64,000 bases of DNA from an uncultured Bdellovibrionales bacterium (lineage in GTDB: Bacteria > Bdellovibrionota_C > UBA2361 > SZUA-149 > CALKYB01). The notes beneath the pieces are model-generated. The model searched no databases. It saw nothing but the letters and a program-made list of their open reading frames with translations, and was not told the origin of the DNA. The stretch lies in NCBI GenBank assembly GCA_964510575.1, contig CAZECN010000005.1, positions 18,518 through 82,517 of the forward strand, in the 5' to 3' direction. A program made the position numbers and the translations under genes. Of the stretch, positions 14,415-17,214 are shown piece after piece; the first letter of the stretch is position 1; the number at the start of each line of letters is the position of its first letter.

Positions 14415-15275
14415 ATGAAAGTTTACCTGTTACTTTTTCTAATATTGGCAGCAAGCTCAGGTTGTAAACAGAACACTGAGTTGTTGAGCAGCTTATCTTC
14501 TAGAGAGTCTATCGAGGTACTCGTTCGCTTAGGCGAGATAGGAATTGAAGTTGAAAGAGTTAAAACTGGTGGAGCTAATAGCTCTTATAAAATTCAGGTG
14601 GCCCAAAGTCAGCATGCTCAAGCTTTAAAAGCACTTCATCAACTGGGCTTACCTCGAGCAATAAAAGATAGTTTAGATTCAATTACTAAACCTGCAGGGC
14701 TTATTCCCAATCCAGCTAAGATCTCTTCTTTGAGACTAGATCATGCTCTAGGGTTGGAGGTTGAAAGGTTGCTTGTTGCTTTACCGGGAGTGACAGAAGC
14801 TAAGGTGGTTGTCCGCTCAAACTTGGGTAGCAGAGACCTTGGTGATAAAACAGGAGGATCCTCTGCTTCAGTTGTCCTTCGTTACCTTTCCCGGACGGGG
14901 AAGTTTTCCTTGTCAGATGAAAGAGTAAAAAAGCTGGTAGCTAAAGGTGTACCAGATTTGAATGAAGAGTCGGTTTTGGTTGAAACTAGCCAGGTTTTTT
15001 TGTCTTCTGGAGCAACAGGTATTGGGGTAAGCGGAGGAGGTGAGGCTAAGGCCTTAAAGTCAATTTGGCCCTTCGGTATTGAAATTGCTGATGATGAGTA
15101 TACCAAGGCTGTGTATATGCTAGCTGGCTCAGGTCTTCTTTTCATCTTTTTAGGTTTGATTCTTGGTTATTTGCTATCTTCTACCTCTGGTAGACTGTTG
15201 TCAGGGGGAAATAGTAGAGCGTTGAGTAATGACAGAAAGAACCTTGAAAGAGGTACAGGGAATTTTTTAAGATAG
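14415..15275 (+). CDS. sctJ: T3SS inner-membrane ring lipoprotein SctJ (YscJ/EscJ/HrcJ family)
   Basis: Signal peptide with Cys (MKVYLLLFLILAASSGC), then ELLSSLSSRESIEVLVRLGEIGIEVERV, typical of the SctJ N-terminus. Also LPGVTEAKVVV and a C-terminal TM helix (LAGSGLLFIFLGLILGYLL). The start was moved to ATG 14415 from the ORF-track 14352. Confidence 0.8.
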   Translation: MKVYLLLFLILAASSGCKQNTELLSSLSSRESIEVLVRLGEIGIEVERVKTGGANSSYKIQVAQSQHAQALKALHQLGLPRAIKDSLDSITKPAGLIPNPAKISSLRLDHALGLEVERLLVALPGVTEAKVVVRSNLGSRDLGDKTGGSSASVVLRYLSRTGKFSLSDERVKKLVAKGVPDLNEESVLVETSQVFLSSGATGIGVSGGGEAKALKSIWPFGIEIADDEYTKAVYMLAGSGLLFIFLGLILGYLLSSTSGRLLSGGNSRALSNDRKNLERGTGNFLR

Positions 15276-15318
15276 CTAGGCTTAATAGCTATGAGAATTA
15301 TCAAATAGGTTAAAAAAT

Positions 15319-15546
15319 ATGCCAAACTTAAGTAAGTTTAGAGCCTTAACTAACCGTGAGCAGGCGGTGGTTGCGTTGGCTGTTTTGCTAGATGGCCACG
15401 ATTCTGTGGAGATGCTTGTAAGCGATAGGGATCGAGGAGTTGCTCTTTCTAGGGCGGCTGAGGATCTAGTTGTGCTATCGCCAGACTTGAGAATGCCCTT
15501 GATGGGAACTCTTCTGAGAAGGGCACTTGAAGAAATTGACACGTGA
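15319..15546 (+). CDS. Small helical protein with FliG N-terminal-like pattern
   Basis: 75 aa. LTNREQAVVALAVLLDGHDSVEML parallels the FliG_N/MgtE_N-type motif LTGxDKxxILLxxIGEDxAAEVF. It sits immediately after sctJ, where fliG follows fliF. The assignment rests on pattern similarity only. Confidence 0.3.
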   Translation: MPNLSKFRALTNREQAVVALAVLLDGHDSVEMLVSDRDRGVALSRAAEDLVVLSPDLRMPLMGTLLRRALEEIDT

Positions 15547-15664
15547 TCCCTCGCATTGAATATGGTTTGTTTTTCTTTGGTGGCAGCATCTTACCTATAG
15601 GGCAGTTTTCAGTTTGTAGGGTAGGTTTTCTGGAGGTGAACTTTTCAAAGAGGTTTAAAGTATC

Positions 15665-16141
15665 TTGAGATCTAAGCAGAAATTAGAAGTAATACTTCGC
15701 TCTCTTGAGGTTGAAGAGAGAGGCGCTCTGGAAGAAAAACTTAGAATTGAAGAGATTGCAGATGCTCGGGTGAAGGGGTTGTCGGGCTTGGTCGAAGAAA
15801 GAACAGTTTTATATTCTAAGCTCGACGACCTTTCGCAGTCCCAGAAGCGGGCTTTGGTCGGGGGGAGTAAGGCTGTTAGTCCAGCTGAGATACAGGCTTT
15901 TAAGGGTAGAATAAACAAACAAATTGAAGAGTTGAAGGTTAAAATCGACAAAGCCGATGAGCAGTATAAATTAGCCCGAGAACGTCTGGAACTGGCTGAG
16001 AACGAGTTGTTAGAGGCTCGTATAGGCCGGAAAAAGGTCGAGAAACTTTTGGATTCCAAGAAAGCCCGAGAACAGGTAAAACAGGAGATGGTGGAGGAAC
16101 GGCTACTAGAAGAATATAGTAGCGGAAAAGTGCGCAATTAA
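15665..16141 (+). CDS. Coiled-coil stalk-like protein (SctO/FliJ-like)
   Basis: 158 aa, almost entirely heptad-like and charged. The C-terminal RKKVEKLLDSKKAREQVKQEMVEERLLEE resembles the FliJ/YscO C-terminus. TTG start, with an aagagg RBS 12 nt upstream. It lies directly before sctQ, as yscO/fliJ would. It could alternatively be an SctL-like fragment. Confidence 0.45.
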   Translation: MRSKQKLEVILRSLEVEERGALEEKLRIEEIADARVKGLSGLVEERTVLYSKLDDLSQSQKRALVGGSKAVSPAEIQAFKGRINKQIEELKVKIDKADEQYKLARERLELAENELLEARIGRKKVEKLLDSKKAREQVKQEMVEERLLEEYSSGKVRN

Positions 16142-16155
16142 TCTTAGCTTTTATA

Positions 16156-17214
16156 ATGTCTACAGTCGGAAAATTAGTCGGAAAAGATGCGAGTCCAATA
16201 CCCTGGTCCCCCAAGGATTTGTTGCCGACTCTATCCTCTAATCAAATTCGATTTAGCAGGGGGTTTTTGCGGAGTGATGTTAGTGTATGGCTTGCGGACT
16301 TTGTAAAGTCTTGGCAATTGCTTCTACATTCTCTTGGCTTAAAAGTTGAACTAAGTTCAGTCAATAATCAATTTAATTTTCCTGAATCTCTGAGTCGAGT
16401 GATACCCATTGAATTGGATGACGAGACTGCAGTCATTGGAATGGATGATGAAAGTCAGGAGATAGTTTCATCTGTAGTGGCGAAAGGATCTGAGTCAACC
16501 GCTGTTGATGTTATTGTCGAATACTTTGAACGTCGAATGCTTAGTTGTGTTAGTCAGCATTGGTCTGGTCCGATGCCTCTTAAAGCTAGGTATCTAGCAG
16601 ATAGTGAATCTACAGCGGTGGATGTTGTTGGTACCATTTGCTTTGTTTTTACCGCAGGAGGTAAAGACTTTAAACTGTGGCTTGGTTTAGGGCCAAGGGC
16701 TGTTGAGAGAATAGACGGCCTATGGAGAAAACAACTTTTTGAAGAAAAAAGTAATTTGCCCGGTCCGAAACTGCCTCAATTATCTACTGTGGATATAGAC
16801 TTAGTTGAGTTGCTTGTTCCCCCTGCTCTTTTAATTGACTACATGAGGAGTGGTACCGTGGTGGAGTTAGACCTTCCGACAAGCAATAAGGTTAGAGTGA
16901 ACCTGAACGGAAATTTCTGGGCTTATGGGCAGCTGGGACAGTTTGAAGGTAATTTCGCGGTTACGCTTGAGGACTTTGAGGCTAAAGAAAAGTCAGAAAA
17001 CGATAGCTCTAGCACAACCAAAGTTAGTGTTCAGCTTGCGGTTGAAGAAATAGATCGTGAGGCTGTTTTAGAGTTCGGCCAGGAGCAGTCTATTCTTTCT
17101 ACTCAAGTTGCAGTTAACGATAGAGCCAGTCTCATTATTAGTGGAGAAAGAGTTGCCTCTGCTATAATTGGCGAGTTGGATGGTAAGTTTGCTTTGACTG
17201 TGTTGCCGAAATGA
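16156..17214 (+). CDS. sctQ: T3SS cytoplasmic sorting-platform protein SctQ (FliM/FliN, SpoA domains)
   Basis: Two C-terminal SpoA/FliN-like segments (SGTVVELDLPTSNKVRVNLNGNFWAYGQLGQFEGNFAVTLEDF and ASLIISGERVASAIIGELDGKFALTVLP). 4-nt ATGA overlap with sctR. Confidence 0.75.
   Translation: MSTVGKLVGKDASPIPWSPKDLLPTLSSNQIRFSRGFLRSDVSVWLADFVKSWQLLLHSLGLKVELSSVNNQFNFPESLSRVIPIELDDETAVIGMDDESQEIVSSVVAKGSESTAVDVIVEYFERRMLSCVSQHWSGPMPLKARYLADSESTAVDVVGTICFVFTAGGKDFKLWLGLGPRAVERIDGLWRKQLFEEKSNLPGPKLPQLSTVDIDLVELLVPPALLIDYMRSGTVVELDLPTSNKVRVNLNGNFWAYGQLGQFEGNFAVTLEDFEAKEKSENDSSSTTKVSVQLAVEEIDREAVLEFGQEQSILSTQVAVNDRASLIISGERVASAIIGELDGKFALTVLPK

What the first reader, a model, noticed from the sequence alone, without database searches (positions are those of the whole stretch)
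14415..17214. fliF-operon-like gene order with the ATPase module (FliH/FliI = SctL/SctN) cleanly absent
Seen: the order is SctJ (FliF equivalent), a FliG_N-like 75-aa ORF, a FliJ/SctO-like coiled coil, SctQ (FliN-like), SctR (FliP), SctS (FliQ), SctT (FliR) and SctU (FlhB). This mirrors fliF-fliG-[fliH-fliI]-fliJ-...-fliN-fliP-fliQ-fliR-flhB. However, only 118 bp (15547-15664) lies where the ATPase and its stator would be, and no Walker-A F1-type ATPase ORF exists anywhere in the window. Established knowledge: in Salmonella, flagellar export persists at a reduced level without FliH/FliI and is driven by proton-motive force. Inference: the system may be PMF-only, may use an ATPase encoded elsewhere, or (very speculatively) may borrow another ATPase. 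Retention of the stalk-like protein without its ATPase would be unusual.
Basis: partly seen in the sequence, partly recalled or inferred. Interest (0 to 1): 0.7.

Follow-up and report, generated by a model that had tools for sequence, protein, structure and literature searches.

The report
Pilus-linked type III secretion core without ATPase
This stretch encodes a stripped-down type III protein-export machine with no ATPase motor gene at the locus, no needle and no outer-membrane pore, joined in one gene array to a Tad pilus machine; the same layout recurs in many uncultured Bdellovibrio-like bacteria, so it may be a natural test of whether such exporters can run on membrane voltage alone.

Summary
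At 14352-19647 the genes run SctJ, a 75-aa ORF, a FliJ/SctO-like hairpin, SctQ, SctR, SctS, SctT and SctU. Only 118 bp separates the 75-aa ORF from the FliJ-like gene. No F1/SctN-type ATPase is detectable in any frame of the 64-kb window.

Two labels need correcting:
- The 75-aa ORF is not FliG_N-like. It is a strongly conserved orphan family.
- SctU is only the membrane half and has no NPTH switch domain.

The array runs on without a break from a Tad pilus set (TadZ, Flp, CpaB, CpaF, TadB, TadC) into SctV, a Ser/Thr kinase and FHA proteins. About 25 related loci, from Bdellovibrionota and Oligoflexia MAGs and from metagenomes, share this build. None has SctN. Some relatives have shortened or lost the FliJ-like gene as well.

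The closest known system is the Myxococcus Kil (Tad-like) pilus plus needleless T3SS*, but that system is encoded at separate loci and keeps SctN.

Best reading: a secondarily reduced export gate driven by proton-motive force and integrated with a Tad machine.

Not excluded: an ATPase encoded elsewhere in the genome. I could not search a whole genome.

The parts
1..935 (+). 3' part of a TadZ/CpaE-like ParA-type ATPase gene (418 aa in the full contig; it starts upstream of the window)
   Evidence: AAA_31 in the source contig. NCBIfam CpaE/MinD-like hits. 82% identical to the orthologue in L007.
1248..1433 (+). Flp-type pilin (61 aa)
   Evidence: PF04964 Flp_Fap on the identical called gene. One TM segment.
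1807..2739 (+). CpaB/RcpC pilus assembly protein
   Evidence: PF16976, E 1.2e-21. TIGR03177 cpaB, 128 bits against a cut-off of 71.
2822..4351 (+). CpaF/TadA-type secretion ATPase (509 aa). It is the only hexameric motor ATPase in the array.
   Evidence: PF00437 T2SSE, E 1.1e-32. TadA-family hit, E 1.7e-62. More than 120 clusters at 63-89% identity in Bdellovibrionota/Oligoflexia MAGs, none with an FHA domain.
4380..5399 (+). TadB-like platform protein
   Evidence: PF00482 T2SSF.
5401..6324 (+). TadC-like platform protein
   Evidence: PF00482 T2SSF.
6476..8680 (+). SctV/FlhA export-gate protein (734 aa, full length including the cytoplasmic ring domain)
   Evidence: PF00771, E 1e-165. TIGR01399 hrcV 511 bits and TIGR01398 FlhA 482 bits, both below their cut-offs. 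Forms its own long-branched clade with the other Tad-linked SctVs. Stays next to TadC in every locus seen, including the split locus L112.
8735..11380 (+). Ser/Thr-kinase-like protein with one TM segment and C-terminal HEAT repeats (881 aa)
   Evidence: Pkinase E 2.7e-7, HEAT_2. TM at 394-412. Conserved directly after SctV in all related loci.
11402..12793 (+). Protein with two FHA domains and a C-terminal membrane anchor. It resembles SctD only in its cytoplasmic part.
   Evidence: FHA E 1.5e-31 and Yop-YscD_cpl E 1.1e-13. TM at 438-456 of 463, so there is no periplasmic ring domain.
13021..14142 (+). Zinc-ribbon plus FHA protein (373 aa)
   Evidence: UPF0547, FHA and Yop-YscD_cpl hits. Conserved before SctJ in related loci.
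14352..15275 (+). SctJ-type inner-membrane ring lipoprotein with a C-terminal TM segment and a short cytoplasmic tail
   Evidence: PF01514. TIGR02544, E 1.6e-28. TM at 253-271. dN/dS 0.14.
15319..15546 (+). orf75: a small cytoplasmic helical protein of an orphan family specific to this system. It is not FliG_N.
   Evidence: AF2 pLDDT 95, five helices. 115 clusters, mostly 50-100 aa and stand-alone. dN/dS 0.014. No FliG_N, Pfam or PDB similarity.
15547..15664 (.). 118-bp spacer at the position where sctK/L/N or fliH/I would lie. A 41-aa ORF (15543-15668) overlaps it but is probably not a conserved gene.
   Evidence: Sequence. The ORF was called in the source contig and in L109. It is absent in L007, L087, L088 and L090, where the gap is 4-96 bp. 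dN/dS 0.31 and 56% identity.
15665..16141 (+). FliJ/SctO-like two-helix coiled-coil protein (158 aa)
   Evidence: PF02050, 36.7 bits against a cut-off of 28.4. AF2 hairpin H2-66/H73-153, pLDDT 91. Top Foldseek hit is YscO 4mh6, with CT670 and FliJ also among the top hits, though none is significant by E-value. dN/dS 0.10.
16156..17214 (+). SctQ-like protein (352 aa) with a C-terminal FliN/SpoA domain
   Evidence: PF01052, E 7.9e-12. dN/dS 0.025.
17211..17888 (+). SctR/FliP
   Evidence: PF00813, E 5.7e-50. NF009438 EscR/YscR/HrcR, 178.7 bits against a cut-off of 179.
17889..18158 (+). SctS/FliQ
   Evidence: PF01313, 25.7 bits against a cut-off of 25.
18168..18887 (+). Probable SctT/FliR (239 aa, about 5 TM segments)
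   Evidence: No direct family hit. The L087 orthologue (58% identity) matches Bac_export_1 below threshold over 11-219 of 230 positions (E 1.7e-4). The positional orthologue in L090 has PF01311 on record.
18901..19647 (+). SctU/FlhB membrane domain only (248 aa). The C-terminal autocleaving switch domain is missing.
   Evidence: PF01312 covers positions 2-235 of 335. No NPTH, and no tail after the match, in any orthologue of 215-300 aa. The control SctU in L042 has NPTH.
19759..20265 (+). orf168: a conserved protein with no family match and a serine/glutamate/proline-rich N-terminal half. Candidate export substrate.
   Evidence: Conserved just before the TPR gene in related loci; in the reduced subclade only the C-terminal ~85 aa remain. 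No Pfam or NCBIfam hit. The substrate role is inference.
20278..20673 (+). Small TPR protein resembling class II T3SS chaperones (LcrH/SycD, CdsG, SctY)
   Evidence: TIGR02552, E 7.7e-9, below cut-off. TPR_19. Conserved at the end of the array in related loci.
21455..22333 (-). Sigma-70-family-like protein (292 aa) conserved next to the array
   Evidence: Weak Sigma70_r2 and FliA/WhiG hits. Positional counterparts of 293 and 297 aa, without a Pfam hit on record, in L087 and L088.
22745..23524 (+). Sigma-70-family factor (259 aa) with weak FliA/WhiG similarity
   Evidence: Sigma70_r4 E 1.6e-10. TIGR02937, 49.9 bits against a cut-off of 42.9. Conserved in L087 and L088.

Best explanation
The finding is the downstream half of one co-oriented gene array of about 24 kb. 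The array combines the inner-membrane core of a Tad (Flp) pilus machine with a heavily reduced type III export apparatus.

- Tad part: TadZ, Flp, CpaB, CpaF, TadB, TadC.
- Type III part: SctV, SctJ, SctQ, SctR, SctS, SctT, the membrane half of SctU, a FliJ/SctO-like hairpin, an orphan 75-aa protein, FHA proteins, a kinase, and a putative substrate with a TPR chaperone.
- Missing: the ATPase SctN and its stator SctL, SctK, needle, rod, ruler, gatekeeper, secretin, translocon, the SctU switch domain and the periplasmic part of SctD.

Shown: this build is conserved and under purifying selection in a broad clade of uncultured Bdellovibrionota/Oligoflexia-like bacteria.

Inferred mechanism:
1. The gate exports unfolded, chaperone-bound proteins across the inner membrane using the proton-motive force.
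2. The FliJ-like protein acts directly on the SctV ring to switch it into its efficient mode, as FliJ does in Salmonella fliHI mutants.
3. With no rod or needle, substrates are released at or into the periplasm and handed to the co-assembled Tad pilus machine, which has its own CpaF motor. This parallels the Kil pilus plus needleless T3SS* of Myxococcus.
4. The Ser/Thr kinases, the PP2C phosphatase and the FHA proteins probably gate assembly or firing.

Because FliJ is itself a component of the F/V-ATPase-like complex, the lack of an ATPase is most likely a secondary loss, not a primordial state.
For: - Gene identities.
- No SctN in the window or in 26 related loci (257 kb), with positive controls at 1e-137 to 1e-269.
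- The same array occurs in GTDB MAGs L007 and L066, in L087, L088, L090 and L111, and in metagenome loci L092-L108.
- Purifying selection against L109 at dS of about 0.5: FliJ-like 0.10, orf75 0.014, SctQ 0.025, SctJ 0.14.
- Graded loss of the stalk across relatives: 158 aa, then about 100 aa, then none. This fits a system that no longer has an ATPase partner.
- The loss of the SctU switch domain and of periplasmic SctD is conserved, which fits a needle-less exporter.
- SctV stays attached to TadC even where the system is split (L112), which argues for coupling between the Tad machine and the gate.
- Published work: export continues without FliHI, and FliJ keeps the gate in the membrane-potential-driven mode (PMC4230889). 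In Myxococcus, Kil and T3SS* are recruited together and act together (PMC12075869).
Against: - No whole genome could be searched, so an sctN/sctL pair or a flagellar fliH/fliI elsewhere is not excluded.
- Related genomes do split the system into two loci, so dispersal is real in this family.
- The FliJ-like gene is under purifying selection, and in known systems FliJ docks efficiently only with help from FliH/FliI.
- SctQ, which normally anchors SctL-SctN, is the best conserved soluble part after orf75. Its retention is unexplained without a partner.
- No secretin or prepilin peptidase lies in the stretch of the source contig that was read (positions 9765-82517), so the Tad part is also incomplete at this locus.
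- No experiment exists for any member.
Confidence: 0.5

Rival explanations
1. The system has a dedicated SctN/SctL (and perhaps SctK) encoded at another locus, as in Chlamydia, where T3SS genes are scattered. The machine would then be an ordinary ATPase-assisted needleless T3SS.
For: - The family is demonstrably modular. L112 carries Tad+SctV+kinase alone, and L104-L106 carry the SctJ-to-SctU half alone, flanked by housekeeping genes.
- The FliJ-like protein and SctQ are under purifying selection.
- Scattered NF-T3SS loci are documented in Chlamydiales (PMC3459982).
Against: - None of 26 loci (257 kb) shows SctN next to either module.
- Several lineages have shortened or lost the stalk, which is unexpected if an ATPase ring still needed it.
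- The two modules that do separate are always the same two; no third module was seen.
Confidence: 0.25
2. The gate borrows the flagellar FliH/FliI complex in trans, and the FliJ-like protein acts as its system-specific adaptor.
For: - From my own knowledge, many Bdellovibrionota are flagellated, so FliI is probably present in the genome.
- The 158-aa protein scores better against flagellar FliJ than against YscO.
- The sigma factors beside the array have weak FliA/WhiG similarity.
Against: - There is no evidence of flagellar genes in the window.
- The SctJ-type lipoprotein, SctR and the LcrH-like chaperone are of the non-flagellar type.
- Lineages without any stalk gene would have no adaptor.
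- From my own knowledge, cross-use of FliI by a second T3SS is not an established mechanism.
Confidence: 0.1
3. The CpaF-type ATPase of the linked Tad machine has replaced SctN. One hexameric motor would serve both the TadB/C platform and the SctV gate, perhaps through the FliJ-like hairpin.
For: - CpaF is the only hexameric motor ATPase in the array. It is very strongly conserved (72% identity where SctV is 45%; more than 120 clusters at 63-89%).
- SctV is always encoded directly after TadB/TadC.
Against: - CpaF belongs to a different ATPase superfamily, and no stalk-type coupling is known for it.
- Its length and domains are ordinary for CpaF, with no added domain.
- Lineages that keep the Tad-SctV linkage have lost the FliJ-like gene (L101).
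- No interaction test was possible.
Confidence: 0.08
4. The T3SS half is a decaying relic with no function.
For: Many canonical parts are missing. SctT, SctU and SctJ are very divergent.
Against: - All ORFs are intact.
- dN/dS is 0.014-0.19 across the seven annotated genes that could be compared; the doubtful 41-aa ORF gives 0.31.
- Gene order is conserved across relatives whose SctV is only 32-45% identical.
- The orf75 family has 115 clusters.
Confidence: 0.02

Closest known systems
Myxococcus xanthus Kil (Tad-like) system plus needleless T3SS* (Seef 2021, PMC8460266; Thiery 2022; Herrou 2025, PMC12075869)
   Same: - A Tad-type pilus machine is paired with a T3SS basal body that lacks needle, secretin and translocon.
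- FHA-domain proteins are abundant.
- The host lineages are predatory or related to predators.
- After the other Tad-linked SctVs, the nearest SctV relatives found are Myxococcota proteins at 35-36% identity.
   Different: - In Myxococcus the two systems lie at separate loci (mxan_3102-3108 and 4648-4661 versus 2434-2464), and T3SS* has its own ATPase SctN. Here they form one array with no SctN.
- KilF carries an N-terminal FHA domain; this CpaF does not.
- No KilC-like secretin lies at the locus.
[quoted passage not shown] This locus would extend the pairing to Bdellovibrionota.
'Myxo' ancestral-type non-flagellar T3SS of Abby and Rocha 2012 (PMC3459982)
   Same: A reduced NF-T3SS without secretin, needle, tip or translocon, conserved over long evolutionary distances and argued to be functional.
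   Different: Both the short and the long Myxo loci keep the ATPase and the inner rod. This clade lacks the ATPase and the SctU C-domain, and its SctV forms a separate long-branched group.
Salmonella flagellar export in fliHI deletion mutants (Minamino and Namba 2008; Paul 2008; Erhardt 2014, PMC4230889)
   Same: An export gate plus FliJ without FliH/FliI, driven by the proton-motive force, with FliJ keeping the gate in its efficient mode.
   Different: That is a laboratory mutant with impaired export that needs suppressors or a raised PMF. Here the state would be natural, conserved and part of a different machine.
Canonical injectisome sctJ-K-L / sctN-O-P-Q-R-S-T-U gene order (Ysc type)
   Same: The retained genes J, O, Q, R, S, T, U are in the same order. 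SctJ is a lipoprotein, and an LcrH-like TPR chaperone is present.
   Different: K, L, N, P, the C-terminal half of U, C, D (periplasmic part), F, I and W are absent.

Membership tests
Non-flagellar T3SS (nine core genes of Abby and Rocha 2012) | SctN ATPase | tested here: not met
   No hit in six frames of the window or of 26 related loci; positive controls were strong. The rest of the genome was not testable.
Non-flagellar T3SS (nine core genes of Abby and Rocha 2012) | SctC secretin | tested here: not met
   No Secretin-family hit in the Pfam scans of 60 window ORFs, which cover every non-overlapping ORF of at least 100 aa up to position 61116, or among the called genes of the contig positions 9765-18517 upstream of the window.
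Non-flagellar T3SS (nine core genes of Abby and Rocha 2012) | SctJ, SctQ, SctR, SctS, SctV | tested here: met
   Pfam hits above the gathering scores for all five. NCBIfam best hits are YscJ, hrcV and EscR-type models, below their equivalog cut-offs.
Non-flagellar T3SS (nine core genes of Abby and Rocha 2012) | SctT | tested here: inconclusive
   No family hit for the window protein. The assignment rests on position, about five TM segments and weak or precomputed Bac_export_1 hits in orthologues.
Non-flagellar T3SS (nine core genes of Abby and Rocha 2012) | Full-length SctU with an NPTH autocleavage domain | tested here: not met
   Only profile positions 2-235 of 335 are covered, and no orthologue has NPTH.
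Flagellar T3SS / fliF operon | FliG (or its N-terminal domain) next to the MS-ring gene | tested here: not met
Flagellar T3SS / fliF operon | FliH/FliI | tested here: not met
FliJ/SctO stalk family | Sequence membership in the family | tested here: met
   PF02050, 36.7 bits against a cut-off of 28.4. TIGR02473, E 7.6e-9, below its equivalog cut-off.
FliJ/SctO stalk family | Antiparallel two-helix coiled-coil hairpin of about 150 aa | tested here: met
   AF2 pLDDT 91, helices 2-66 and 73-153. The top Foldseek hit is YscO 4mh6, with CT670 at TM 0.73 and FliJ 3ajw at rank 6. E-values are not significant, as expected for coiled coils.
FliJ/SctO stalk family | Binding to the SctV/FlhA ring and to an SctN/FliI hexamer | not testable with these tools
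   No multimer prediction or experiment was available.
Myxococcus-type needleless T3SS* | Basal body and sorting platform without needle, secretin or translocon | tested here: met
   definition taken from PMC12075869.
Myxococcus-type needleless T3SS* | Own SctN ATPase | tested here: not met
   compared.
Kil-type Tad system | Core Tad genes (CpaF, TadB/C, CpaB, Flp) with many FHA proteins and without TadG, RcpB or TadD | tested here: met
   features taken from PMC8460266.
Kil-type Tad system | N-terminal FHA domain on the ATPase, and a short KilC secretin | tested here: not met
   The CpaF here and its 120 listed relatives have no FHA domain. No secretin lies in the locus.
Kil-type Tad system | Phylogenetic placement inside the Kil clade | not tested

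The most novel reading that the evidence does not exclude
A widespread, undescribed class of envelope machine in Bdellovibrionota/Oligoflexia. In it a type III export gate has permanently lost its F1-like ATPase complex and has become a built-in module of a Tad pilus machine: SctV is encoded and assembled with the TadB/TadC platform. The gate would run on proton-motive force alone, or be coupled to the pilus motor. This would be the first natural ATPase-free T3SS and the first genetically fused T4P-T3SS hybrid.
Probability: 0.35. Interest if true: 0.85.

Novelty: new variant of a known kind. Interest (0 to 1): 0.72.

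Why it matters
The F1-like ATPase is counted among the core genes of every flagellar and non-flagellar T3SS. Whether it is mechanistically required has been argued from Salmonella deletion mutants.

A conserved natural lineage without it would do three things:
1. Provide an evolutionary experiment on export driven only by the proton-motive force, and on what FliJ does by itself.
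2. Give genetic evidence, through operon fusion, for the proposed Kil pilus/T3SS* supercomplex, whose physical association in Myxococcus is still hypothetical.
3. Extend that pairing to Bdellovibrionota; a 2025 review describes the co-occurrence as apparently restricted to Cystobacterineae, and one genomic study also annotates both systems in Bradymonadia.

It also supplies a minimal parts list for a T3SS-like exporter, including a new, invariably present 75-aa component.

Tried and rejected
- The 41-aa ORF in the 118-bp gap is not a conserved gene. It is absent in L007, L087, L088 and L090, and its dN/dS is 0.31.
- My first SctN motif regex was too strict and found nothing. After correction it found 24 true SctN genes in classical loci and none in the family.
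- Promoter and terminator scans of 1100-21000 were not different from shuffled sequence, so they say nothing about operon limits.
- The PADLOC scan of three orphan ORFs was empty.
- Two attempts to extend the source contig downstream failed because the exact product was not on record.
The 13-member alignment worked.
- The SctV tree is neighbour-joining, midpoint-rooted and has no flagellar outgroup. It shows that the clade is distinct, not where it branches.
The Bdellovibrionota assignment rests on the names of related MAGs.
- A whole-genome search for SctN/FliI could not be done.

Full report
**1. What is at the coordinates**

The + strand from 14352 to 19647 carries, with short gaps or overlaps:
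- an SctJ-type lipoprotein (PF01514; TIGR02544, E 1.6e-28);
- a 75-aa ORF (15319-15546);
- a 158-aa ORF (15665-16141) that matches Pfam FliJ above the gathering score (36.7 against 28.4 bits) and YscO weakly;
- SctQ (FliMN_C), SctR (FliP) and SctS;
- a 239-aa protein with five predicted TM segments in the SctT position;
- SctU.

The spacer 15547-15664 is 118 bp. A 41-aa ORF overlaps it and was called by a gene finder in the source contig. Relatives have only 4-96 bp at this position, and the ORF evolves almost freely (dN/dS 0.31). I treat it as spacer.

**2. Is the ATPase really absent?**

Pfam scans of 60 of the window's ORFs, covering every non-overlapping ORF of at least 100 aa up to position 61116, found no ATP-synt_ab domain; three ORFs at 61133-63882 were not scanned. 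I then took five genuine SctN proteins from classical injectisome loci fetched. They were recognised by their Walker A and Walker B motifs. I searched them with phmmer --max against all stop-to-stop ORFs of at least 25 aa in six frames, which covers the whole window. The best E-value in the window was 0.88. In 26 related loci (257 kb) it was 0.11. The same queries gave 1e-137 to 1e-269 on control loci. So not even a fragment of an ATPase gene is present. No ORF of SctL or FliH size or family is present either.

**3. Corrections to the gene labels**

*orf75.* It folds with high confidence (pLDDT 95) into a small five-helix bundle. None of the tests supports a FliG_N identity:
- Foldseek against the PDB gives nothing significant. 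A FliFc:FliGn chain appears only at rank 7 with E 6.7.
- A PDB profile search finds nothing.
- hhalign of 13- and 88-member profiles against T. maritima FliG_N gives probabilities below 0.1%. I verified that sequence as identical to 5tdy_B.
- None of 88 members hits any Pfam family.

An exhaustive HMM search found 115 clusters at 50% identity, mostly stand-alone proteins of 50-100 aa. orf75 is therefore an orphan, system-specific component. It is the most constrained gene of the array: 100% amino-acid identity at dS 0.43, and dN/dS 0.014.

*SctU.* It stops right after the fourth TM segment and linker. Only profile positions 2-235 of 335 are covered. No orthologue (215-300 aa) has NPTH, whereas a control SctU does.

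*The SctD-like protein* (11402-12793). It has two cytoplasmic FHA domains and a TM segment seven residues from its C-terminus, so it has no periplasmic ring.

**4. The FliJ-like protein**

Besides the Pfam match, the AF2 model (pLDDT 91) is an antiparallel hairpin of two long helices. Its best Foldseek hit is YscO of V. parahaemolyticus. Chlamydial CT670 (TM 0.73) and Salmonella FliJ are also among the top hits. E-values are not significant, as is usual for coiled coils. The gene is under purifying selection (dN/dS 0.10).

**5.

The window comes from a 105.7-kb metagenome scaffold. Reading upstream on the same strand gives:
- a PP2C phosphatase, an FHA protein and a Ser/Thr kinase;
- TadZ/CpaE, Flp pilin, CpaB, a CpaF-type ATPase, TadB and TadC;
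- then SctV (6476-8680), a membrane kinase with HEAT repeats, the two FHA proteins, and the genes of the finding.

Downstream follow a conserved unknown protein (orf168), a small TPR protein resembling LcrH/SycD-class chaperones (E 7.7e-9, below cut-off), and two sigma-70-family genes with weak FliA/WhiG similarity. No secretin, prepilin peptidase, needle, rod, ruler, gatekeeper or translocon gene was found.

**6. Conservation**

- The nearest SctV in the species-level genome collection is in a Bdellovibrionota MAG (45% identity), followed by Myxococcota proteins at 35-36%.
- The whole array is repeated in that MAG (L007), in L111 (an Oligoflexia MAG) and in L087, L088 and L090. L066, a second Bdellovibrionota MAG, shows it as far as its contig reaches, which is just past the kinase/HEAT gene. 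SctJ-orf75 junctions were recovered from 17 more metagenome contigs.
- The CpaF has more than 120 cluster-level relatives at 63-89% identity, named Bdellovibrionales, Bdellovibrionota, Oligoflexia or 'Deltaproteobacteria' where they carry a name.
- In a neighbour-joining tree, the Tad-linked SctVs form their own long-branched clade apart from all other non-flagellar SctVs retrieved. The tree has no flagellar outgroup, so the root is unknown.

**7. Variation inside the family**

The interval between orf75 and SctQ has three states:
- about 500-620 bp holding the 158-aa FliJ-like gene: the window and 10 loci in which the interval could be measured, plus L098, where the gene is present but the contig ends before SctQ;
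- 290-355 bp holding a coiled-coil ORF of about 100 aa: 4 loci;
- 0-53 bp with nothing: 6 loci.

It never has room for an ATPase gene.

The array also splits at one fixed point. L112 has Tad+SctV+kinase followed by housekeeping genes. L104-L106 have the FHA-SctJ-orf75-SctQRSTU-chaperone half alone, between RNase G and panB. SctV therefore travels with the Tad platform genes, not with SctRSTU.

**8. Interpretation**

*Shown:* a conserved and selected Tad-plus-reduced-T3SS array without any locus-encoded SctN or SctL.

*Inferred:*
- The gate is driven by the proton-motive force, and the FliJ-like protein activates SctV directly. Established work supports this as feasible. Flagellar export continues without FliH/FliI, and in a fliHI mutant the gate operates in the efficient membrane-potential mode because FliJ is present (PMC4230889).
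- The missing ruler, SctU switch domain, rod and needle fit an exporter that never changes substrate class and delivers into the periplasm.
- The chaperone-like TPR protein and orf168 suggest a dedicated substrate.
- FliJ belongs to the F/V-ATPase-like module, so its presence points to secondary loss of the ATPase rather than a primordial ATPase-free state. The graded decay of the stalk in relatives agrees with that.
- The kinases, the phosphatase and the FHA proteins suggest phosphorylation-gated assembly, as proposed for Kil (PMC8460266).

**9. Comparison with known systems**

The closest is the Myxococcus Kil pilus plus needleless T3SS*. These are recruited together at prey contacts and act together (PMC12075869). 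The differences are:
- they are encoded at separate loci;
- T3SS* has SctN;
- KilF carries an FHA domain;
- Kil has a secretin.

Abby and Rocha's 'Myxo' NF-T3SSs also keep the ATPase. [quoted passage not shown] My literature searches found no description of a fused Tad-T3SS array or of an ATPase-less T3SS in Bdellovibrionota. I therefore rate it a new variant of a known kind.

**10. Limits**

- I could not search any complete genome for SctN/FliI, so a dedicated or flagellar ATPase acting in trans remains possible. The modularity of the family makes this a serious rival.
- No interaction could be modelled.
- The taxonomic assignment of the window rests on related MAG names.
- The SctT assignment is weak.

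Noticed in passing
window 1-6324, and the source contig upstream (L003 4355-9688): Directly upstream of SctV on the same strand lies a complete inner-membrane Tad/Flp pilus gene set (TadZ, Flp, CpaB, CpaF, TadB, TadC), preceded by a PP2C phosphatase, an FHA protein and a Ser/Thr kinase. No secretin or prepilin peptidase was seen.
   Followed up: yes
window 18901-19647: SctU consists of the membrane domain only. The autocleaving NPTH switch domain is missing in every orthologue, and the protein is even shorter (215-233 aa) in the subclade that also lacks the FliJ-like gene.
   Followed up: yes
window 11402-12793: The SctD-like protein has two FHA domains and a TM segment at the extreme C-terminus, so it cannot build the periplasmic ring of a normal SctD.
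   Followed up: partly
window 19759-20673: A conserved pair: an unknown protein with a serine/glutamate/proline-rich N-terminal half, followed by a small TPR protein resembling LcrH/SycD, CdsG and SctY chaperones. This may be a substrate-chaperone pair. In the reduced subclade only the C-terminal ~85 aa of the first protein remain.
   Followed up: partly
window 21129-23524: Two divergently placed sigma-70-family genes with weak FliA/WhiG similarity, plus a 110-aa unknown ORF, have positional counterparts next to the array in L087 and L088. They may be system-specific regulators.
   Followed up: partly
L112 12571-17219; L104-L106: In other genomes the system is split at a fixed point. Tad+SctV+kinase form one module and FHA-SctJ-orf75-SctQRSTU-chaperone form the other. 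SctV always stays with the pilus platform genes.
   Followed up: yes
L094, L095, L102, L103 (between orf75 and SctQ); L099-L101, L104-L106: The FliJ-like gene is shortened to a coiled coil of about 100 aa in some relatives and is absent in others.
   Followed up: yes
window 8735-11380: An 881-aa protein with an N-terminal kinase-like domain, one TM segment and C-terminal HEAT repeats always follows SctV. Its role and its topology (HEAT side periplasmic or cytoplasmic) are unknown.
   Followed up: no
window 51660-55613 (- strand): A 1317-aa ORF with only faint NHL and sortilin-type repeat hits, possibly a large surface or secreted beta-propeller protein.
   Followed up: no
window 40381-43327 (- strand): A patatin-like phospholipase sits next to a fused acyltransferase/GNAT protein. 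There is no evident link to the secretion locus.
   Followed up: no
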